Below are positions 9,464-17,132 of a stretch of DNA of 32,000 bases, in pieces. A program made the position numbers and the translations under genes. Under the pieces are notes generated by a model. It had not been told where the DNA came from. It did not search any database and was given only the letters and a program-made list of their open reading frames with translations. Source of the stretch: Candidatus Electronema halotolerans (GTDB lineage Bacteria; Desulfobacterota; Desulfobulbia; Desulfobulbales; Desulfobulbaceae); assembly GCA_942493095.1 (NCBI GenBank), contig OW818675.1:1170001-1202000 (forward strand). The letters are read 5' to 3'. Position 1 is the first letter of the stretch, and every line of letters begins with the position of its first letter.

Positions 9464-10903
9464 TCAACCCCGCCTGATTCGCATGGTCACGGCAAAGCCC
9501 TTGGGTTGCAGGTTGCGGGCTGTGACCGTGCCGCCGCAGCTTTCCACGCAGGTTTTGACAATCGCCAGCCCCAGTCCCACGCCGCCGGAATCACTGTCGC
9601 GGGAAGGTTCTGGGCGAAAGAAGGGTTCAAAGAGGCGGTCAAGGTATTCCTCTGCCACACCAGGGCCGCAGTCAGCAACCGTGATTTCCACTTGGCCGTC
9701 CTCTTCATTGGCCGCAACTGTGATCATACCTGCCTTGCCAGCATATTTGACCGCATTGCGGAGCAGATTGGCAATGGCTCTGGTGAGCAGCTCGACTGAG
9801 GCAGTGACTTGAATATCCGGCCTGACCTGCACCTCTATCGCCGCAGCAGAGGAAGACTCGCGCCGCGCTGCCTCCTGCACCACGGACAGCAGGCTTATTT
9901 GCTCCAGCTTTACTGCCTGACTGCCCATGTCAGCCCGTGAAAAGGCGAGCAGCTCGCCGATCAACCGGGAGAGATGGTCAACATCCTCCATCACATCTTG
10001 GACCCGCTCCTGATTTGCGCCTTCCAGCCGCTGTTCCAGCACCCCCAGACCAAACTGGATCCGGGCCACTGGCGAACCCAATTCATGCGAAACATCCCCC
10101 AAGAAACGCTTCTGCCCTTGGACAAAGGCGGACAGCCGGGCAGTCATGTGATTGACAGTCCGGGCCAGCCTGCCTATTTCGTCCGCTCGCGGTTCGTGGA
10201 TGGAGACGGCGAAATTGCCCTTGGCAATCTCCTCCGCAGCCTCTGTCATCCGGGCCAGCGGCTTGGTGATGCTGCGGATCATGGGCAGCCAGAAGAGGAC
10301 GGAGATAATGATGATCACCGCAGCGGCCAGCATCCACGGCAGGGGATCAAAGAAGAAGCCGTTGCCGGTGATGGAGTCGGAAACCGCCAGCAGCAGGACA
10401 GGCAGATGCCGCTCCGAAGCCTCAAGGAAGAGCGGCAGGCGGATGCCGAACCACCAGCGGGCAGGTGTGCCGCTGTGCATGATCAGCAAAGGCCGCCGGT
10501 GGCCCGGTCGCTCTGGCGGCTCACCAGCGCAGGGCGGTTCGTTCGGCGGCCCGCGCCGTTGGAGAAGCTCCTTGGCCCGCACCAGCACCGCCGCCGGGAT
10601 GCTACTCTTTTGCTTGGGCGGAAAGACCAAGCCGCTGGGCAGGACGATCAGGAAATCCACGCCATGAATCTGGCCATGCCGGGCAAGGACATCCGGCCAC
10701 TCATCCGGCGGGGCCTGCCCCAGATCGTGGTTGAGGAGCATCCCGGCAGTGCGCAGACGGTCTGCGCCCTGATGACCAAAGAACTCATCCAAGTCCATGC
10801 GCAGCTGCACGGCAAAGAAGGCAGCCAGCACTGTGGCCAAGAGCAGCAGGTTGAGGAAGAACCACGCTATGATCTTGGCAAAGAGAGAAGACGGCAGCTT
10901 CAT
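9464..10903 (-). CDS. Membrane sensor histidine kinase (two TM helices + periplasmic domain, HAMP, HisKA, HATPase_c)
   Basis: 479 aa. HAMP ITKPLARMTEAAEEIAKGNF...DEIGRLARTVNHM, H-box FLGDVSHELGSPVARI, N/G boxes LLRNAVKYA, DCGPGV, GGVGLGLAIV. ATGA overlap with the upstream RR gene. Confidence 0.9.
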   Translation of the reverse strand: MKLPSSLFAKIIAWFFLNLLLLATVLAAFFAVQLRMDLDEFFGHQGADRLRTAGMLLNHDLGQAPPDEWPDVLARHGQIHGVDFLIVLPSGLVFPPKQKSSIPAAVLVRAKELLQRRGPPNEPPCAGEPPERPGHRRPLLIMHSGTPARWWFGIRLPLFLEASERHLPVLLLAVSDSITGNGFFFDPLPWMLAAAVIIIISVLFWLPMIRSITKPLARMTEAAEEIAKGNFAVSIHEPRADEIGRLARTVNHMTARLSAFVQGQKRFLGDVSHELGSPVARIQFGLGVLEQRLEGANQERVQDVMEDVDHLSRLIGELLAFSRADMGSQAVKLEQISLLSVVQEAARRESSSAAAIEVQVRPDIQVTASVELLTRAIANLLRNAVKYAGKAGMITVAANEEDGQVEITVADCGPGVAEEYLDRLFEPFFRPEPSRDSDSGGVGLGLAIVKTCVESCGGTVTARNLQPKGFAVTMRIRRG

Positions 10904-11619
10904 GGCTGCTCCGGCGGGGCGATGAACATATAGCCTGCGCTGCGCACGGTCTGGATAAAGCGGGGCTGGCGCGGGTTTTCGCCGAGCTTGCGCCGCAGGG
11001 AGGAGATATGCACATCCACAGACCGGTCAAAGACATCATAATCCCGGCCAGCAACCGCCTCAAGCAGGTGATCGCGGGTCAGCACCCGGCCAGCGGCATT
11101 GGCCAGCACAGCGAGCAGGTCGTATTCCAGCGGAGTCAGGGTCAGCACTTCCCCGCCGAGCCGCACAGTGCGGGAATTCTGCTCAATCTGCAAGTCGGTG
11201 AAGCAGAGCACTGGCTCTCCTGCCTCGCTCCGGGTGGTCTCCGCAGCCTGCCAGCGGCGGGTCACAGCCCGGAGACGGGCGAGCAGCTCACGGGAGGAGA
11301 AGGTTTTCGGCAGATAGTCATCCGCGCCCATTTCCAAGCCAACAATGCGGTCGGTCTCCTCGCCCCGTGCGGTGAGCATCAGCACCGGCACGGTTGACAC
11401 CTGCCTGAGCTGTTTCAGGACCTCAAAGCCGTCCATCTGCGGCAGCATCACATCAAGAATCACGGCCTGATACTCCTTCTGCCGGAACAGCTCCAGTCCA
11501 TCCGGGCCGTTGTACGCCGCCTCGACCTCGTAGCCCATCGGCTCCAGGTAATCTCCCACCAAGCGGCAGAGCTTCCGGTCATCGTCAATCATGAGGATTT
11601 TCATGGTCTCGGCTTTCAT
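10900..11619 (-). CDS. OmpR/PhoB-family response regulator (receiver + winged-helix)
   Basis: MKILMIDDD...VILDVMLPQMDG...LMLTARGEE...GADDYLPKTFSSRELLARL...; C-terminus LTPLEYDLLAVL...IQTVRSAGYMF. ATG 11619 has AAGGAG 5 nt upstream and overlaps the ROCO stop (ATGA). Confidence 0.9.
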   Translation of the reverse strand: MKAETMKILMIDDDRKLCRLVGDYLEPMGYEVEAAYNGPDGLELFRQKEYQAVILDVMLPQMDGFEVLKQLRQVSTVPVLMLTARGEETDRIVGLEMGADDYLPKTFSSRELLARLRAVTRRWQAAETTRSEAGEPVLCFTDLQIEQNSRTVRLGGEVLTLTPLEYDLLAVLANAAGRVLTRDHLLEAVAGRDYDVFDRSVDVHISSLRRKLGENPRQPRFIQTVRSAGYMFIAPPEQP

Positions 11620-13817
11620 TGCCGCTCCTTCCGCCCGCTCAATATCTTCCAAAGCTGTTTGAGGTCGATGCCGAAACCTGAGAAACTTGGCTTCAGCATA
11701 AGCAGTTCCTTCTCATCCATCTGCGCTTTCATCATCCGCAGCAGTTCAAGCATCTCATCGTCTCTGCTCGGCTCCACCAAGCCAAGGAGTTCCTTTACAC
11801 TGTAGCACTTCTTTGAGCCGTCTGGAATAAAGACATCTGAACCTGCCTCAGCAAGATTGATCAAGGTCTCGTAATCGGCACTGCGCTGCGGGTCATCAGG
11901 CATGGGAATGCGCTCGCTGACATCAAGATGCTTAAAGGTGTTGTTGATCTCGCGCAAGGAGAACCAGAGGAAGTGGAGATATTCCTTGCGGCGCGGGCCA
12001 TTCACCCAGAGGTTGATACGCCGGGCCTCGGTATCCGCCCGCACTACGGCCTCAGAGCCGCTTTCCCGGTCTTGCAGCACTGCGCCAGTGCGCCAACTCA
12101 GAGCATCCTTGATCTGCTGATGCACCTTGACCATGAAGCGCGGCATGACCGAAGGCGGCAGGAAGTCATGATAATGGAGGACAAACTGGAGCGCGTCCGC
12201 CTCGTCGAAAGTAAAGTCCGGCTCAACCACACCAAGAAGTTGCGGGATCAGCACCCGCTCGCTGTCCAGCTCCCAGCACAGCTCAAACTTCTTCATCAGC
12301 TTGATGATGAAAACATGAGTCTCTGGCGGGTAGGAGTGCGGCTCACCCGGCTGCTGGCGCAGGATGTCCTTCAGGCTTTCCAAACGAAGAATGCCTTTGT
12401 CCGCCGCCACCTGCCCGCTGTTGATAATTTTATAGACCGCGTTGGTCACCCAGACCGGGTCAAGGACGTGGGTGGCATCAAGGATGAAATCTTTGAAATG
12501 AACGGCCACGCCCAGATCGTGGAGAAGGTCAACCAGCGTCTCTTGGCTGGCCTGCTCAGTGATGCCCGCATCGACGCAGATGCTGCCATACTCGCGGCTG
12601 CTGATATAGGACCTGCCGAGCCGGGCAATCTGCTCTTTGACCAGAAACCAGCTCCCCGGCCAGCGGATGCCGATCATCTCCACCCGCGCCAGTTCTTTAA
12701 GTAGGGTCTCGCGGAGACGGCTAATGCCATCGCCGTCAGCGCAGGAGGTTCGGAAAAAGCCTTTGATTGATGGATACTTTGCTTGCAGGAAAGGCCGGTT
12801 GATGTCAAAGGAGGGGTTGGCATCCTGCTTGTTGAGCACCACCAGCACGGGTGAGTCGCCGCCAAAGCTCTCGATATGCTGGAGCCAGTATTCGGGCCGC
12901 TCGTCCTTGCGACCATCGAGCACGAGGACATACAGGCTGCGCTTGGACAGAAAGAACTGGTGCGTGGCGTGCATGATCTCCTGGCCGCCAAAGTCCCAGA
13001 TGTTGACCTTGATTGGCTGGCCGCCCGCAGTTACGTCCCAGCCCCGGATGCTGATGCCGTGCGTGGTGTCTTCGTGCTGGTCAAACTCCTCGCCGAGGAG
13101 CTTCTTGACCAGCGATGTCTTGCCTGCTGCGCCGTCACCGACAAGGAGCACCTTTACTTGGTTGAGGGGCTGGTCTTCTGCTTGGAGATTGGCGAAATAC
13201 TGGCGGATGGCTTCGATGCCTTGACGGGCGATCTCTATCGGCGGCGAGGTGAGGGGGTTGCCGCTGAGGTAAAGTTCCGTCAGTTTAGTGAGCTGGCCGA
13301 TTTCTGACGGTAGGGCGCTGAGTTGGTTTGTGTCGAGGTTAAGCAACGTCAGACTATTGAGTTGACTAATCTCAGGCGGCAGACTGTTCAACCGGTTGGC
13401 GTAAAGGTTAAGCTTCGTCAGGTTCGTGAGCTGGCAGATTTCCAGCGGCAGGGCAGTGAGCTGGTTGCTGCTGAGGAGAAGCACTGTCAGGCTGGTTAGC
13501 TGGCAGAATTCAGGCGGCAGGGTAGCGAGCTGGTTGTTGTTGAGTTCAAGCCTCGTCAAGTTCGTAAGCTGGAACAGCTCTGGCGGCAGGGTAGTAAGTC
13601 GATTACCTCTAAGATTAAGTTCTTGCAACTTAGTTAATTGGCAGATTTCCTGCGGCAAGGAAGTCAGACGATTACCTTGAAGCTCAAGGCATGTTAAATT
13701 GGTTAACTGGCCAATCTCCGGCGGCAGCTCGATAAGTTGCTTGCCACTCAAATAAAGACTGGTTGTCCCCTTCTCCTTAGCCTTGCGTATTACCTCAAGC
13801 AGCTCTTCATTCGTCAT
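11616..13817 (-). CDS. ROCO-family protein: LRR - Roc (Ras-of-complex GTPase) - COR
   Basis: Eight 23-aa LRRs (LxxLxLxxNxLxxLPxEIxQ). G1 LLVGDGAAGKTSL, G3 WDFGGQE, G4 LNKQD. COR-like LDPVWVTNAVYKIINS. Start set at ATG 13817 (AGGTG 8 nt upstream; the N-terminus NEELLEVIRKAKEKGTTSLYLSG is typical). The track start at 13934 runs through a non-coding repeat array. Confidence 0.85.
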   Translation of the reverse strand: MTNEELLEVIRKAKEKGTTSLYLSGKQLIELPPEIGQLTNLTCLELQGNRLTSLPQEICQLTKLQELNLRGNRLTTLPPELFQLTNLTRLELNNNQLATLPPEFCQLTSLTVLLLSSNQLTALPLEICQLTNLTKLNLYANRLNSLPPEISQLNSLTLLNLDTNQLSALPSEIGQLTKLTELYLSGNPLTSPPIEIARQGIEAIRQYFANLQAEDQPLNQVKVLLVGDGAAGKTSLVKKLLGEEFDQHEDTTHGISIRGWDVTAGGQPIKVNIWDFGGQEIMHATHQFFLSKRSLYVLVLDGRKDERPEYWLQHIESFGGDSPVLVVLNKQDANPSFDINRPFLQAKYPSIKGFFRTSCADGDGISRLRETLLKELARVEMIGIRWPGSWFLVKEQIARLGRSYISSREYGSICVDAGITEQASQETLVDLLHDLGVAVHFKDFILDATHVLDPVWVTNAVYKIINSGQVAADKGILRLESLKDILRQQPGEPHSYPPETHVFIIKLMKKFELCWELDSERVLIPQLLGVVEPDFTFDEADALQFVLHYHDFLPPSVMPRFMVKVHQQIKDALSWRTGAVLQDRESGSEAVVRADTEARRINLWVNGPRRKEYLHFLWFSLREINNTFKHLDVSERIPMPDDPQRSADYETLINLAEAGSDVFIPDGSKKCYSVKELLGLVEPSRDDEMLELLRMMKAQMDEKELLMLKPSFSGFGIDLKQLWKILSGRKERQ
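13224..13760 (-). repeat. Coding tandem repeats: 8 leucine-rich repeats of 69 nt each within the ROCO gene
   Basis: The peptide units LTNLTCLELQGNRLTSLPQEICQ / LTKLQELNLRGNRLTTLPPELFQ / ... repeat head to tail. Confidence 0.9.
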
Positions 13818-13859
13818 TGTCTGCGCACCTGTGTTTGTTGGTTGTATAGCATTCGGAGT

Positions 13860-13974
13860 CAGCATGCTGACTCGGCAAGTACCAGCATGGTGGTAAGCCA
13901 AGTACCAGCATGGTGGTAAGCTAAGTTGCAGCATGCTGGAACGACGGGTTGCAGCATAGTGACTCCGTCGCCGT
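13860..13974. repeat. Five-unit tandem array with an exact 23-bp period, each unit starting with a CAGCAT(G/A)(C/G)TG palindromic core
   Basis: Cores start at 13860, 13883, 13906, 13929 and 13952 (cagcatgctg, cagcatggtg, cagcatggtg, cagcatgctg, cagcatagtg). Units 2 and 3 are near-identical (cagcatggtggtaagc[c/t]aagt). The array lies 43-157 nt upstream of the ROCO start codon. Confidence 0.9.
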
Positions 13975-14060
13975 CAGTCGCGGGTTGTACTCTCAAGGGC
14001 CTCCTGCTGCTTTTCCTGCAAGGCAGCCGCAAGAGGCCGTCTCTGCAAGAGGAATACGCC

Positions 14061-14089
14061 ATCCTAAAAAGACGCGCCGGTTTTGTCAA
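14061..14089 (-). promoter_or_regulatory. Candidate sigma70 promoter for the ROCO-RR-HK operon (TTGACA-17-TAGGAT on the minus strand)
   Basis: The reverse complement of 14084-14089 is TTGACA and that of 14061-14066 is TAGGAT, with a 17-nt spacer. This would place the 23-bp array inside a leader of about 235 nt. Confidence 0.35.
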
Positions 14090-14309
14090 GGAAATGCCGG
14101 GCTTGTTCTGTCTTACAGAGAAGCAGGAACAGCAGCGGGAAGAGATGCCCGTCTCCTGCCAGCCATAGGAACTGCTTGCGGTTGGGAGATGAAGCCTGTT
14201 CAGGAAAAACTTGCTGGGCGCAGGGCCGCCGTGGTTACACGGCAGTGCGGGAGGGAAAGACGGAAAAGCAGGGCTGTGCTTGAGAATGGACAGCCGGGGA
14301 AAAGGAAAT

Positions 14310-14338
14310 CTGCGACCGCTTGCGCAGCGGTCTTGCAG
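14310..14338 (-). terminator. Possible terminator hairpin after the sigma54-activator gene
   Basis: gaccgct / agcggtc form a 7-bp stem (14314-14332), extendable by ctgc/gcag. On the minus strand it is followed by ATTTCCTTTT. Confidence 0.35.
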
Positions 14339-14343
14339 ATCGT

Positions 14344-15984
14344 TCACCGGGCAAAGTCAGGCCGCTCCAGATTGAACTTCTTGATCTTGTAGCCGATCTG
14401 CCGCTGAGTCAGGCCCAGCTCCCGCGCCGCCCTGGCCTGCACCCAGCCATGCCGGAGCAGGGCCTCCTCAATTTGCTCGCGCTCAATCTCCAAGAGCGAT
14501 TTGCGGGTTCTGGGCAGTGTTGAGGGCGGCCCAGGCGCAGTGCTGCTGGCTGCGGGCGGAAGAGCAGGAGCGGCAGCAGGCATGGACGGCCTTGCCGCCT
14601 CCTGCGTGGGCGCAAAGAACTGGTCTGGCAGGTCTTCCAGCCGCAGCAGATCATCGGCAGAAAGAATCACCAGCCGTTCGATCAGGTTTTGCAGCTCGCG
14701 GACATTGCCGGGCCAGTCATAAGCGGTCATGGCATCAAGAAAATCACGGCTCATGCGGATGTTCTTGCTGTTCCGCTGATTGCTCAGTTTAAGAAAATGA
14801 TCTACCAGCAGCGGAATGTCCTCCCGCCGTTCCCGCAGCGGCGGCAGAATGATCGGCACCACATTGAGCCGATAATAAAGATCATTGCGGAAGCTGCCCT
14901 GCGCCACAGCCTGCTGGAGGCTGACATTGGTGGCGGCAATAATCCGCACGTCAACGCTGATGGTTCGATTGGAGCCGAGCCGCTCAAACTGCTGCTCCTG
15001 GAGGACCCGCAGCAGCTTGGACTGGAGCAGCAAGGGCATCTCGCCGATTTCATCGAGAAAAAGCGTGCCTTTGTCCGCCAGCTCAAAGCGACCGACCCGC
15101 GTCCCGCCTGCGCCGGTGAAGGCCCCTTTCTCATGGCCGAACAGCTCGCTTTCCAGCAAGGATTCCGGCAGGGCGGCGCAGTTGATCTTGACAAAAGGAC
15201 TGTTGCGGCGCGAACTGCTGTCATGAATGGCCTGCGCCGCCATCTCCTTGCCTGTGCCGGAGTCGCCGAGCAGGAGCACCGTGGCCTGACTGGGCGCAAC
15301 CCGCTCAATGCTCCAGAAGACCTCCTGCATGGCCTTGCAGTGGCCGATGATGTAATGCTTGCGGTGCCGCTCGTGCAGTTGGGCCTTGAGACTGATGTTC
15401 TCCTGCATCAGCTTCTGGCGGTCCCGGCGGATGGCCTGATTCAGGCTGAGAAACTGGGCGATCAGGGTGGCGACCACGGTCAGGAAGCGGACATCTTCAT
15501 CAAACGAAATTTCCAAGCCAAAGAGCCGGTCCACACTCAGAACCCCGACCGGCTTTTCGTGCAGCAGCACCGGCACGCCGATAAAGGCGATCTTGGTCTT
15601 GCGGAAGAGCTGCCTGGAGCCGGTGCGGTTGAGAAAGAGCGGCTCGCTGCTCACATCCGGGACAATAAAGGGCGAGGCAGTGCGGAAAATCTTGCCGCAG
15701 ATGCCTTCGTTTAATTTATAGACCCCGCGTTCCTCCTCCTCCACACTCAGACCATAAGAGGCGCAGATGCTCAACTGCTCCTGCTTCTCATCTAACAGGG
15801 CCAGCGTGGCCCGCTCCATCCGCAAGGTGTCGTGCAGCACTTTGAGAATCGCGGACAGCACTGTTTCCAGATGCACAGCAGAGTCAATCAGCTTGACGAT
15901 CCGATATAAGGCCTTGATCTCCAAGGCCTCGGTGGTGAAACGGTCTTTGGGGAAGAGGCAGAGTTCCTCCTTATCGCTGCCCAT
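14344..15984 (-). CDS. Sigma54-dependent transcriptional activator, GAF - AAA+ - Fis-type HTH (NifA-like architecture)
   Basis: N-terminal GAF-like domain. Walker A GDSGTGKE, the sigma54-contact loop [17 protein letters not shown], a Pro/Ala-rich linker, and the C-terminal [23 protein letters not shown]. Start set at ATG 15984 (AAGGAGA 6 nt upstream) rather than the track start at 16029. Confidence 0.85.
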
Positions 15985-16022
15985 GATGCGTCTCCTTGTC
16001 TCATTAAATTTGTCCAACTTGT

Positions 16023-17132
16023 TCAGCATCCCTGCATGGCCAGGCCAAGCAGCTGCTGTTCGCTGAGGACGCTGCCGCCTGTCCGCAGCTGGCAGACAAG
16101 CTCTTCCGCCCTGCTTTCATCAAGCTGCACCCCCAGCTTTTGCAAATGCAGCAGCACGGCTCTGCGGCCAGTTTTGCCGCCAAAACGAAGCGTTCTCCTG
16201 CCCTTGACCCGCTCCGGCGGATACGGCTCATAAGTGGCTGGATTGACCGCCAGACCATGCTGGTGCAGGCCGGTTTCGCAGGTGAATATCTCTTTGCCCA
16301 CTAACGGATGATGGGCAGGAATGCTTCTCCTTGCCGCCCCGGCCACGCAACGGCAGAGCGCAGGCAGGTTTTCGGTCTGATAGTGCCGCTGTTCCAGGAC
16401 CAAGGCCAAATAACCGACAGCCTCCTCCAAACGGCAGCAGCCTGTCCGCTCGCCCAAACCGAGCACGGCGGCATCAAGACAGTCTGCGCCCGCCTCCAAG
16501 GCGGCAATGGAATTGGCTGTGGCCATGCCAAAATCGTTATGACAATGCACGCCTATTGTGACGGGCAGCACCTTTTTCACCGTCTTGACCAAGGCGGCCA
16601 TTGTGCCGGGCGAGCAGATGCCGACCGTGTCTGCCAAGCGGATTCTGCCTGCGCCGTTTTGCGTGGCGATGCTCCCCGCTGCAAGGACAAAGGCGGGATC
16701 AGCGCGGGAAGCGTCTTCCAAGCCGACTGAGACATAAGGAATGCCCAACACCAGAGCCTGCCGGACTGAGCTGGTTAGCTGCTCCAAAACCCAAGCCCGG
16801 TCTTTGCCCAGCCGCTCCTTGATATGGCAGTCAGACACGGGCATGGACAAGGAGAGAACATCAGGACGGCACGCTGCGGCAAAAGCAATGTCCTCCTCCC
16901 GGCAGCGGCACCAGAGGGCAAGACGGCAGGCCTTGCCGACAAGTTTGCGGGCCGCGCTGACCAAGTTTGGCAGCCAAGCATGCAGCGGCGAGGCCACGCC
17001 CAGTTCTATTTCAGCAACACCAACCCGCCGCAGCCCGGCAATGATCGCCCGTTCTGTCGCCGGACTGAACACCACGCCCGGTGCCTGCCTTCCTTCCCGC
17101 AAGGTGGAGTCAATAATTTCAACATGCTTCAT
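16023..17132 (-). CDS. nifV: Homocitrate synthase-like enzyme (HMGL/LeuA-family catalytic domain only, NifV-size)
   Basis: 369 aa. [60 protein letters not shown]. It lacks the LeuA regulatory C-domain, as NifV does, and sits next to a NifA-like activator. Confidence 0.6.

What the first reader, a model, noticed from the sequence alone, without database searches (positions are those of the whole stretch)
9464..13817. LRR-Roc-COR (ROCO) GTPase translationally coupled to an OmpR-type response regulator and a membrane histidine kinase
Three minus-strand genes are chained by ATGA stop/start overlaps (11616-11619 and 10900-10903). The RR's AAGGAG lies inside the last ROCO codons, which implies co-transcription and coupled translation.

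The ROCO protein has eight LRRs, intact G1/G3/G4 GTPase motifs and a COR domain, but nothing after COR. In eukaryotic ROCO proteins (LRRK2, Dictyostelium Roco kinases) a protein kinase follows COR. Here a His-kinase phosphorelay occupies that genomic position in trans.

This suggests a GTPase-gated two-component pathway, or a cytoplasmic LRR sensor feeding a TCS. The physiological role of bacterial ROCO proteins is largely unknown, to my knowledge.
Basis: partly seen in the sequence, partly recalled or inferred. Interest (0 to 1): 0.75.

Follow-up and report, generated by a model that had tools for sequence, protein, structure and literature searches.

The report
Roco GTPase gene heading a two-component operon
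A cable bacterium carries a LRRK2-like GTPase gene fused into one operon with an ordinary envelope-type sensor kinase and regulator, but the arrangement occurs only in one small clade and the GTPase copy has been swapped there, so it looks like a local operon fusion, not a new signalling pathway.

Summary
Three minus-strand genes encode an LRR-Roc-COR (Roco) GTPase (13817-11616), an OmpR-type regulator (11619-10900) and a HAMP-HisKA kinase (10903-9464). Both ATGA overlaps are present, and AAGGAG lies 5 nt before the regulator's ATG. The window is from Candidatus Electronema halotolerans, a cable bacterium.

The functional reading is weakly supported.
- No regulator or kinase lay within 3 kb of the Roco gene in any of 79 Roco loci from many phyla.
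- No Roco gene lay beside the roughly 65 kinase orthologues of 43-76% identity.
- The trio exists only in one Electronema clade (kinase 80% identity or more). All six sampled members have it, while the outer flanks, seen in five, differ between species.
- In that clade the Roco copies are not orthologous in sequence. Synonymous divergence is about 1.0 for Roco against 0.34-0.44 for the regulator and kinase. Nucleotide identity jumps from about 60% to over 90% exactly at the Roco stop codon.
- Other cable-bacterial Roco paralogues sit upstream of unrelated genes (MutS, CobD, AcrB, ProS) and are domain mosaics.

Best reading: one copy of an expanded, recombining Roco family was captured at the head of an ancient CpxRA-like operon. 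Co-transcription is likely. Direct gating of the kinase by the GTPase is not supported, though not excluded.

The parts
11616..13817 (-). Roco gene (LRR-Roc-COR GTPase), 733 aa
   Evidence: ORF; Pfam Roc, COR-A, COR-B and LRR_8; 100% identical to P0001, Ca. Electronema halotolerans GCAAIG_05360; CtRoco/MbRoco2 homology
13218..13769 (-). Eight 23-residue leucine-rich repeats (about aa 17-200)
   Evidence: Read from the translation; Pfam LRR_8/LRR_4/LRR_14
12696..13154 (-). Roc G domain (aa 222-374) with G1 GDGAAGKTS, G3 DFGGQ and G4 NKQD
   Evidence: Pfam Roc/Ras; invariant columns in a 20-sequence alignment. It is the most conserved block between paralogues (84-95% nt identity).
11784..12659 (-). 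COR-A (aa 387-528) and COR-B (aa 542-678)
   Evidence: Pfam PF16095 E 1e-36 and PF25497 E 1.5e-28
11619..11783 (-). 55-aa C-terminal tail after COR-B. It is conserved among cable-bacterial paralogues (consensus ..ELKPxxFGxGxNLNELFxRIL..) and has no domain hit.
   Evidence: Consensus of alignment A1; no Pfam hit beyond aa 678
11625..11630 (-). AAGGAG Shine-Dalgarno-like hexamer, 5 nt before the RR ATG and inside the last Roco codons
   Evidence: Sequence; also present in L159 and L160
10900..11619 (-). OmpR/PhoB-family response regulator, 239 aa; alternative start at 11604 (MKILMIDDD)
   Evidence: Pfam Response_reg plus Trans_reg_C; orthologue N-termini
9464..10903 (-). Membrane sensor histidine kinase (TM, periplasmic segment, TM, HAMP, HisKA, HATPase_c), CpxA/BaeS-like
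   Evidence: Pfam; NCBIfam best hits are CpxA/BaeS, below their cutoffs; orthologues across Desulfobulbales
14061..14089 (-). Candidate sigma-70-type promoter TTGACA-17-TAGGAT for the Roco-RR-HK unit
   Evidence: Consensus scan, 10 of 12 matches; prediction only
14310..14327 (-). Terminator-like hairpin plus T-run just after the nifA stop; it would separate nifA from the trio
   Evidence: prediction only
13860..13961 (.). Tandem array with a 23-nt period, 4 copies, palindromic core CAGCATGCTG, 43-144 nt upstream of the Roco ATG
   Evidence: The core motif occurs 6 times here against 0.65 expected in the window. Similar arrays precede Roco paralogues in L002 and L090.
13818..13895 (-). Leader shared by Electronema Roco paralogues, ending ..ACAGGTGCGCAGACA before the ATG
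   Evidence: 74-88% nt identity to L080/L082 although the coding sequence is about 60-70%; alignment of 14 leaders

Best explanation
This is a lineage-specific operon fusion, not a dedicated Roco-TCS signalling system.

The RR-HK pair is an ancient, vertically inherited, CpxRA/BaeSR-like envelope-type two-component system of Desulfobulbales. In almost all lineages it works as a stand-alone two-gene operon.

At the base of one Electronema clade, a copy of the strongly expanded cable-bacterial LRR-Roc-COR family came to lie directly in front of the RR. It brought its family-typical leader and displaced the pair's own upstream region. The three genes are now most likely transcribed from a promoter upstream of Roco. 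The RR is then translated by coupling or re-initiation at the Roco stop (ATGA, or an ATG 11 nt later), and the HK by the usual RR/HK ATGA overlap.

The Roco protein is a canonical, probably active GTPase of the CtRoco type, with LRR as the binding surface and a GTP-dependent dimer-monomer cycle. The gene in this slot has since been replaced or gene-converted by other paralogues. Its relationship to the TCS is therefore co-expression, not a co-evolved protein interface.

Shown: the anatomy, the phyletic distribution, the sharp identity break and the excess synonymous divergence. Inferred: a single transcript, translational coupling, GTPase activity and the absence of direct Roco-TCS contact.
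For: 1. No RR or HK hit (tblastn E<=1e-3) lies within 3 kb of Roco in any of 79 Roco loci from cable bacteria, Methanosarcinales, cyanobacteria, Chloroflexota, Acidobacteriota and others. Fifty-nine of these loci have at least 3 kb downstream.

2. HK orthologues are conserved full-length across Electronema (71-90%), Electrothrix (60-65%) and other Desulfobulbales (about 57%). RR-HK stays paired in wider-family loci whose contig reaches upstream of the HK, and none has a Roco next to it. E. aureum, Electronema sp. PJ, Electrothrix aarhusensis and a JGI contig have RR-HK without Roco.

3. Roco-positive loci (window, L159, L160, L091, L080, L082) form one clade in the HK tree, which fits a single gain.

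4. The Roco copies at the slot are not each other's closest relatives in a Roc-COR tree.

5. For window versus L080, dS is 0.37 (RR), 0.44 (HK) and 1.00 (Roco). For window versus L091 the values are 0.34, 0.41 and 1.09.

6. Nucleotide identity jumps from 56-63% to 90-95% exactly at the Roco stop/RR start in three comparisons.

7. L160 shares the window's Roco 3' end, while its HK-sister L091 has a COR region only 54% identical.

8. The closest relatives of the window's Roco (P0046, P0013) are not next to a TCS.

9. Other cable-bacterial Roco paralogues sit upstream, on the same strand, of MutS (twice), CobD, a CobQ fusion, AcrB, ProS and a VWA protein.

10. Domain-wise dS between paralogues is mosaic. 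For example, L089-L090 gives COR-A 0.19 against LRR 1.59. This indicates recombination within the family.

11. No sigma-70-like promoter or terminator was predicted between Roco and RR. A promoter-like site lies upstream of Roco and a terminator-like site lies after nifA.
Against: - Within the clade the trio is kept in all six sampled members. The genes outside it differ in the members whose flanks were seen: nifA/birA, CbiMNQO, aconitase/glycosyltransferases, NicO. Such retention is what a functional unit would show. It is equally expected if RR-HK now depend on the Roco promoter.
- A second, differently arranged adjacency exists in L086, with Roco 350 nt downstream of the HK. Two adjacencies to the same TCS are somewhat more than expected by chance.
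- The number of Roco paralogues per genome could not be counted, so the chance expectation is only rough.
- The tight junction (overlap or 11 nt) is tighter than for most other Roco paralogues (65-290 nt; only L003 has 6 nt).
- dS values near 1 are close to saturation. Several comparison contigs come from metagenome assemblies of a multi-copy gene.
Confidence: 0.6

Rival explanations
1. The Roco GTPase is a cytoplasmic LRR sensor or GTP-dependent switch that directly gates the co-encoded RR/HK phosphorelay. It would be functionally analogous to the Roc-COR-kinase coupling in LRRK2.
For: - Tight operon structure with coupled translation, which favours stoichiometric co-production.
- The trio is retained in all six members of the clade despite rearranged flanks.
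- A second Roco adjacency to the same TCS exists in L086.
- There is precedent for Ras-like GTPases wired to histidine kinases or response regulators in bacteria: the actinobacterial conservon, MglA-RomR and Group 1 Rup neighbourhoods (PMC4316618; PMC13343842).
Against: - No Roco-TCS adjacency in 79 Roco loci or in about 65 HK orthologue loci outside the clade.
- The TCS clearly functions without Roco in most lineages.
- The Roco in the slot is exchanged between close relatives (54-65% aa identity, dS about 1) while RR and HK stay 90-96% identical. This is hard to reconcile with a specific interface.
- The HK has its own periplasmic sensor and HAMP input.
- Other Roco paralogues sit in front of unrelated housekeeping genes.
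Confidence: 0.13
2. The link is regulatory, not physical. The RR autoregulates the operon, so this Roco copy is an output of the envelope-type TCS and is produced when the HK is activated. Its LRR-GTPase activity then acts on some other target.
For: - Two-component operons are commonly autoregulated (established knowledge).
- Roco is the first gene of the transcription unit, so any RR-dependent promoter control would include it.
- A repeat array lies between the candidate promoter and the Roco ATG.
Against: - The 23-nt array and leader also precede Roco paralogues that have no TCS next to them (L002, L090). They belong to the Roco family, not to this TCS.
- The array core is a palindrome, whereas OmpR-family regulators typically bind direct repeats about 10-11 bp apart (established knowledge).
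- No RR binding site could be defined here.
Confidence: 0.15
3. The Roco paralogues of cable bacteria are an NLR-like, diversifying family of intracellular LRR receptors serving conflict or immunity in a multicellular filament. This copy's position in front of the TCS is incidental.
For: - The family is expanded, with several copies per genome, and the copies are domain mosaics.
- Roco is found mainly in filamentous, multicellular or giant prokaryotes in the genome scan: cable bacteria, Thiomargarita, Marithrix, Nostocales, Chloroflexota, Methanosarcina.
- Roc-COR occurs in conflict systems of multicellular prokaryotes (PMC7159879), and ROCO proteins are candidate immune receptors in brown algae (PMC11378527).
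Against: - There is no effector domain, and no defence-system hit in PADLOC.
- Domain-average dN/dS is 0.15-0.45, which is purifying or relaxed selection, not positive selection.
- Neighbours are housekeeping genes, not defence islands.
- No site-level selection test was run.
Confidence: 0.12

Closest known systems
Chlorobium tepidum Roco (CtRoco; PDB 6hlu, 8r4b) and Methanosarcina barkeri Roco2 (4wnr): group 1 prokaryotic LRR-Roc-COR proteins
   Same: Same domain order of LRR, Roc, COR-A and COR-B. Full-length sequence homology (E 3.5e-139 over aa 37-681). Same G motifs. No kinase or other effector domain. [quoted passage not shown]
   Different: Shorter LRR region (8 repeats; the CtRoco entries run to 974-1107 residues) and only a 55-aa conserved tail after COR-B. 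It belongs to a multi-copy, recombining family in cable bacteria. It is the first gene of an operon with a TCS, which was not seen for any of 79 other Roco loci.
CpxRA / BaeSR / OmpR-EnvZ-type envelope two-component systems
   Same: RR has a receiver plus a winged-helix Trans_reg_C domain. HK has two TM segments, a periplasmic segment, HAMP, HisKA and HATPase_c. The RR/HK stop-start overlap is present. Best NCBIfam hits are OmpR/CpxR and CpxA/BaeS.
   Different: All equivalog scores are far below cutoff (CpxA 178 bits against 486; OmpR 221 against 331). It is a distinct Desulfobulbales orthologue group of unknown signal. The periplasmic segment has no Pfam match.
Actinobacterial conservon (CvnA HK-like, CvnB roadblock, CvnC, CvnD Ras-like GTPase) and Group 1 Rup neighbourhoods
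   Same: Bacterial operons that combine a Ras-superfamily GTPase with a histidine kinase. This is the known precedent for a 'G protein plus HK' module (PMC4316618; PMC13343842).
   Different: Those use small single-domain GTPases with an MglB/roadblock partner and a dedicated, distinct HK clade, in a neighbourhood conserved across many genomes. Here there is no roadblock or CvnC-like gene, the GTPase is a multidomain Roco, the HK is an ordinary widespread orthologue, and the neighbourhood is confined to one clade.
LRRK2 and Dictyostelium Roco kinases (group 2/3 Roco)
   Same: Homologous LRR-Roc-COR core (LRRK2 E about 1e-44).
   Different: No Ser/Thr kinase domain in cis. The neighbouring HisKA kinase is unrelated in fold and chemistry. 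It is separated from COR by a response-regulator gene and is a membrane sensor with its own input.

Membership tests
Roco family (group 1, LRR-Roc-COR) | Ras-like Roc G domain with G1, G3 and G4 motifs | tested here: met
   Pfam Roc E 3.8e-31 and Ras 1.9e-13. GDGAAGKTS, DFGGQ and NKQD are present, with key residues invariant in A1.
Roco family (group 1, LRR-Roc-COR) | COR domain (COR-A plus COR-B) immediately C-terminal to Roc | tested here: met
   PF16095 aa 387-528 and PF25497 aa 542-678, both far above cutoff
Roco family (group 1, LRR-Roc-COR) | N-terminal LRR domain and no further catalytic domain | tested here: met
   Eight 23-aa LRRs; nothing after aa 678 except a 55-aa tail
Roco family (group 1, LRR-Roc-COR) | GTP binding and hydrolysis with a nucleotide-dependent dimer-monomer cycle | not testable with these tools
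   Inferred only, from homology to CtRoco (PMC5714945 and PMC11052575 listed)
OmpR/PhoB response regulators | Receiver domain with phospho-acceptor Asp, plus a winged-helix Trans_reg_C domain | tested here: met
   Pfam, both domains; DDD near the N-terminus and the Asp in ..VILDVMLP.. are readable in the translation
Class I (HisKA) sensor histidine kinases | TM segments, HAMP, HisKA with H-box His, and an HATPase_c domain | tested here: met
   Pfam HAMP, HisKA and HATPase_c; H-box ..DVSHELGSP.. in the translation
CpxA / CpxR equivalogs | Score above the NCBIfam equivalog cutoff | tested here: not met
   CpxA 178.1 bits against cutoff 486; CpxR 201.5 against 341. It is CpxRA-like, not CpxRA.
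   0 of 79 Roco loci and 0 of about 65 distant HK orthologue loci. It is present only in one clade, consistent with a single gain, plus one rearranged case, L086.
   The Roco copies at the slot are polyphyletic. Their dS is about 1.0 against 0.34-0.44 for RR/HK. There is a sharp identity break at the Roco stop.
   No multimer modelling or biochemistry was available
Conservon-type G protein/HK system | MglB/roadblock partner, CvnC-like protein and a dedicated HK clade | tested here: not met
   Only three genes lie in the unit. The neighbours are nifA and a birA-like gene. The HK is a widespread orthologue.
Known anti-phage defence systems (PADLOC) | A significant match to a defence-system protein model | tested here: not met
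   Only marginal hits (E 2e-5 to 2.5e-3, 15-22 bits) to generic ATPase or receiver regions

The most novel reading that the evidence does not exclude
In this Electronema clade a Roco GTPase may truly have been recruited as a cytoplasmic input or modulator of a CpxRA-like two-component system. That would be the first natural case in which a prokaryotic LRRK2 homologue has an identifiable downstream pathway. The interchangeable Roco cassettes would then supply different LRR specificities to the same phosphorelay.

The evidence does not exclude this. The trio is retained in every clade member despite flank rearrangement, and a second Roco adjacency to the same TCS exists.
Probability: 0.12. Interest if true: 0.75.

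Novelty: new member of a known kind. Interest (0 to 1): 0.3.

Why it matters
The physiological role of bacterial Roco proteins is unknown, although CtRoco is the main structural model for the LRRK2 GTPase. A conserved operon partner would have given the field its first functional handle.

The comparative data say this locus is probably not that handle. The TCS is an ordinary, ancient pair, and Roco is a recent and replaceable addition. This redirects effort. The more informative fact is that cable bacteria hold a multi-copy, recombining Roco family, whose members share a leader and sit as first genes in front of diverse housekeeping operons. That pattern is worth a genome-wide survey. The clade-restricted Roco-RR-HK operon remains a cheap in vitro test case for any Roco-effector hypothesis.

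Tried and rejected
- **Sigma-54 promoter.** I read the repeat 'CTGGTACTTGGCTTACC' as a possible -24/-12 promoter because nifA is next door. By eye the -12 element is TTAC or GAGT, not TTGC, so I dropped it. No scan tool exists for sigma-54.
- **Rfam.** A search of the 13700-14400 intergenic region gave only a sub-threshold chance hit (flavi_FSE 18.6 bits against 43).
- **PADLOC.** No defence family was found.
- **Literature.** Searches for cable bacteria with LRR or GTPase, for Roco with anti-phage, and for Roco with operon or two-component found nothing relevant beyond general Roco reviews and the prokaryotic small-GTPase survey.
- **Simple orthology of the slot's Roco copies.** I expected it and rejected it after the tree, dS and sliding-identity analyses.
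- **Assembly chimeras as the cause of the Roco swap.** A mis-join in a metagenome assembly cannot explain the divergence of the last 100-300 nt, which are contiguous with the RR. It remains a caveat for the 5' parts of L080, L082 and L091. Two contigs (L159, L160) do break inside Roco, as expected for a multi-copy gene.
- **Counting Roco paralogues per genome.** This was not possible.

Full report
**1. What is in the sequence**

- Roco: 13817..11616, 733 aa.
- Response regulator (RR): 11619..10900, 239 aa.
- Histidine kinase (HK): 10903..9464, 479 aa.

The junctions read ...cggAAGGAGcggcaATGAaagccgagaccATGaaaatc... and ...gagcagccATGAagctg.... Both ATGA overlaps are real, as is the AAGGAG 5 nt before the RR ATG.

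Pfam gives these domains:
- Roco: LRR_8/LRR_4, Roc (aa 222-332), COR-A (387-528) and COR-B (542-678).
- RR: Response_reg plus Trans_reg_C.
- HK: HAMP, HisKA and HATPase_c.

Eight 23-residue LRRs can be read in the translation. The motifs G1 (GDGAAGKTS), G3 (DFGGQ) and G4 (NKQD) are present, and their key residues are invariant in a 20-sequence alignment. Only a 55-aa tail follows COR-B.

The protein matches the solved bacterial and archaeal Roco proteins over its full length: CtRoco 6hlu/8r4b at E about 1e-139, and MbRoco2 4wnr. NCBIfam places the RR and HK nearest OmpR/CpxR and CpxA/BaeS, but far below the equivalog cutoffs.

The Roco protein is 100% identical to a hypothetical protein of Candidatus Electronema halotolerans, a cable bacterium, on a 3.2-Mb contig.

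The flanks are housekeeping genes:
- nifA (above its TIGR01817 cutoff) and a homocitrate-synthase-like gene lie upstream.
- A convergent birA-like gene lies downstream.
- dsrAB-like genes lie further away.

A terminator-like hairpin follows nifA (14327-14310). A TTGACA-17-TAGGAT site lies at 14089-14061. No promoter-like or convincing terminator-like site lies between Roco and the RR. These are consensus matches only.

One caveat concerns the RR start. All RR orthologues without an upstream Roco begin at MKILMIDDD, which is the ATG at 11604. In the window, L080 and L082, the Roco stop lies exactly 11 nt before that conserved ATG, and an ATG or GTG overlaps the stop. The 5-residue extension this produces is not conserved. 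The RR therefore starts either at the overlap, which AAGGAG favours, or 11 nt after the Roco stop. Either way the two genes must share a transcript, and ribosomes finishing Roco are delivered to the RR start.

**2. Is the linkage conserved? Broadly, no**

I scanned one genome per GTDB species with an alignment of Roco homologues. This returned 79 loci with up to 10 kb of flank, at 37-64% identity. They come from cable bacteria, Methanosarcinales, cyanobacteria, Chloroflexota, Acidobacteriota, Thiomargarita, Marithrix and others.

A tblastn search with the window's RR and HK found no hit at E<=1e-3 within 3 kb of Roco in any of the 79 loci. Fifty-nine loci have at least 3 kb downstream.

I then tested the reverse direction. 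The HK has clear full-length orthologues in Electronema (71-90%), Electrothrix (60-65%) and other Desulfobulbales (about 57%). A metagenome scan returned 67 loci. In about 65 HK orthologue loci of 43-76% identity, the RR sits directly upstream of the HK in nearly every locus whose contig extends that far. None has a Roco next to it.

RR-HK without Roco is also the state in E. aureum (two assemblies), a JGI contig, Electronema sp. PJ and Electrothrix aarhusensis. The TCS is thus an old, vertically inherited pair that normally works alone.

**3. Within one clade, yes**

Every sampled relative with an HK at least 80% identical has a Roco directly upstream of the RR.
- L080 (HK 90%): both 4-nt overlaps are present.
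- L082, Electronema sp. KV (HK 81%): gaps of 11 and 4 nt.
- L091 (HK 90%): a Roco COR C-terminus, then a 34-nt gap.
- L160 (HK 88%): the contig starts 74 nt before the RR, and those 74 nt are the window's Roco 3' end, including the ATGA.
- L159 (HK 99%): the contig starts 23 nt before the RR, within the same tail.

In an HK tree these loci form one clade, which is consistent with a single gain. The genes outside the trio differ in the members whose flanks were seen: nifA/birA in the window, CbiMNQO, aconitase/glycosyltransferases, and NicO.

One more distant relative, L086 (HK 73%), has a Roco 350 nt downstream of the HK on the same strand.

**4. The Roco in the slot is not a stable partner**

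In a Roc-COR tree of 123 homologues, the window's Roco, L080's (= P0045) and L082's (= P0115) do not group together. Each is closer to paralogues found elsewhere.

The window Roco's nearest relatives, P0046 and P0013, lie next to a pyruvate-kinase-like gene with small ORFs, and next to HicAB/MutS. Neither lies next to a TCS.

Synonymous divergence (NG86):

| Comparison | RR | HK | Roco |
|---|---|---|---|
| window vs L080 | 0.37 | 0.44 | 1.00 |
| window vs L091 | 0.34 | 0.41 | 1.09 |

Sliding nucleotide identity jumps from 56-63% to 90-95% exactly at the Roco stop/RR start in all three comparisons.

L160 shares the window's Roco tail, at about 89% by my count over 74 nt. Its HK-sister L091 has a COR region only 54% identical in protein.

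Among paralogues, dS is mosaic by domain. L089-L090 gives COR-A 0.19, COR-B 0.41 and LRR 1.59. L089-L001 gives COR-B 0.27 and COR-A 0.42. The Roc domain is homogenised (dS 0.24-0.9). Omega is 0.13-0.6 everywhere.

The simplest reading is one ancestral insertion, followed by gene conversion or replacement from other paralogues. This argues against a co-evolved Roco-RR/HK interface.

Caveats: dS near 1 is close to saturation. The tree is neighbour-joining. Several contigs are metagenome assemblies of a multi-copy gene, although the divergent 3' ends are contiguous with the RR.

**5. Roco paralogues sit in front of many unrelated genes**

In other Electronema and Electrothrix loci, the next substantial gene downstream is on the same strand in most cases. 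The downstream genes are:
- a CobQ fusion (L001)
- AcrB (L002)
- CobD, with a 6-nt gap (L003)
- MutS (L004 and L090)
- ProS (L005)
- a VWA protein (L011)
- small ORFs (L016, L089).

Many paralogues share a leader ending ...CCCACAAACAACRCAGGTGCGCAGGCG-ATG, followed by the N-terminus MTNEELLKVIEEAKA. The TCS is therefore one of many contexts for this family.

**6. Mechanism, as far as it can be committed**

- Most likely (about 0.6): a lineage-specific operon fusion. Roco-RR-HK is transcribed from a promoter upstream of Roco. The RR is translated by coupling at the Roco stop and the HK by the usual overlap. Roco is a canonical CtRoco-type GTPase whose link to the TCS is co-expression.
- Less likely: direct GTPase gating of the phosphorelay (about 0.13).
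- Less likely: Roco as an output of an autoregulated TCS operon (about 0.15).
- Less likely: Roco as an NLR-like diversifying receptor with incidental placement (about 0.12).

Retention of the trio in the clade fits a functional unit. It also fits RR-HK simply depending on the Roco promoter.

**7. Comparison with what is known**

By the literature, prokaryotic Roco proteins are all LRR-Roc-COR and have no known physiological role (PMC6337361).

Links between bacterial Ras-like GTPases and two-component proteins are known for small GTPases. Examples are MglA with response regulators, the actinobacterial conservon (HK, roadblock protein, CvnC and GTPase), and Group 1 Rup neighbourhoods with an HK or GGDEF/EAL output (PMC4316618; PMC13343842). 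Roco proteins were set aside in that survey. I found no paper describing a Roco-TCS operon or the Roco expansion in cable bacteria.

The locus fails the features of a conservon-type system: there is no roadblock partner, no dedicated HK clade and no broadly conserved neighbourhood. It also matches no PADLOC defence model.

**8. Verdict**

The proteins are new members of known kinds, and the arrangement is a clade-restricted operon fusion. Interest is modest at 0.3. The residual novel reading, true recruitment of Roco to this TCS, has a probability of about 0.12.

Noticed in passing
window 13860-13961 (both strands), bracketed by 13854-13869 / 13952-13967: A tandem array with a 23-nt period and 4 copies lies in the Roco 5' region. 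Its core is the palindrome CAGCATGCTG, and it is flanked by a 16-nt inverted repeat. The core motif occurs 6 times here against 0.65 expected in the window. As RNA the region folds to -53.4 kcal/mol (z -2.8). Similar arrays precede Roco paralogues in L002 and L090. Other paralogues (L086, L013, L082) have short tandem arrays of different sequence.
   Followed up: partly
window 13818-13895; L080:5201, L082:5262, L089:6001, L090:1157, L001:5040, L002:10001, L003:3236, L004:10001, L005:9971: Electronema Roco paralogues share a leader (..CTGACTCCGAATGCCACACAACCCCACAAACAACRCAGGTGCGCAGGCG-ATG) and the N-terminus MTNEELLKVIEEAKA. The same leader heads truncated Roco 5' stubs (L080:4479; L005 minus strand 8825 and 9055) and a non-Roco ORF (L001:4212). 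It may be a portable promoter/SD module or a recombination anchor.
   Followed up: partly
L001:4212 and 5040, L003:3236, L004:10001, L080:4479 upstream regions; weaker in window about 13990-14010: A dispersed intergenic repeat recurs upstream of several Electronema genes. It reads '..GGGWWCCCTTGAGGATG..CCCGTAGGGGCACGACATGTCGTGCCCCTAC..' and contains a GC-rich hairpin. It looks like a REP/MITE-like element.
   Followed up: no
L004:12415-15153 and L090:3285-5984; L001:7416-9980 and L003:5611-6615: Roco paralogues lie directly upstream, on the same strand, of mutS in two different Electronema genomes and of cobalamin genes (CobD, CobQ fusion) in two others. These may be further conserved 'Roco-first' arrangements.
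   Followed up: no
L082 and L002 (Electronema sp. KV, JAPEVH010000020.1): Two Roco genes, P0115 and P0061, lie about 10 kb apart on the same contig and flank the RR-HK region. Tandem or nearby Roco pairs also occur in L025, L032 and L048.
   Followed up: no
L159 and L160 contig ends: Two independent metagenome contigs break inside the Roco 3' end, 23 and 74 nt before the RR. Assemblers typically break at multi-copy genes in this way.
   Followed up: yes
window 11619-11783 (Roco aa 679-733): The 55-aa tail after COR-B is conserved among cable-bacterial paralogues (..ELKPxxFGxGxNLNELFxRILxxxKxK) and has no domain assignment. It ends in a basic stretch and might be an interaction or membrane-association motif.
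   Followed up: no
window 14344-17132 (minus strand): A NifA-type sigma-54 activator (TIGR01817, 571 bits against cutoff 529) is preceded on the same strand by a homocitrate-synthase-like gene (HMGL-like plus HCS_D2). The two coding regions overlap by 7 nt at 16023-16029. Nitrogen-fixation regulatory genes thus sit next to the trio in this cable bacterium.
   Followed up: no
L084:6623-7123 (E. aureum): In one E. aureum assembly the region upstream of RR-HK holds transposase remnants (rve, DUF4096, HTH_Tnp_4). A second assembly of the same species has different upstream genes. The locus is a rearrangement hot spot.
   Followed up: no
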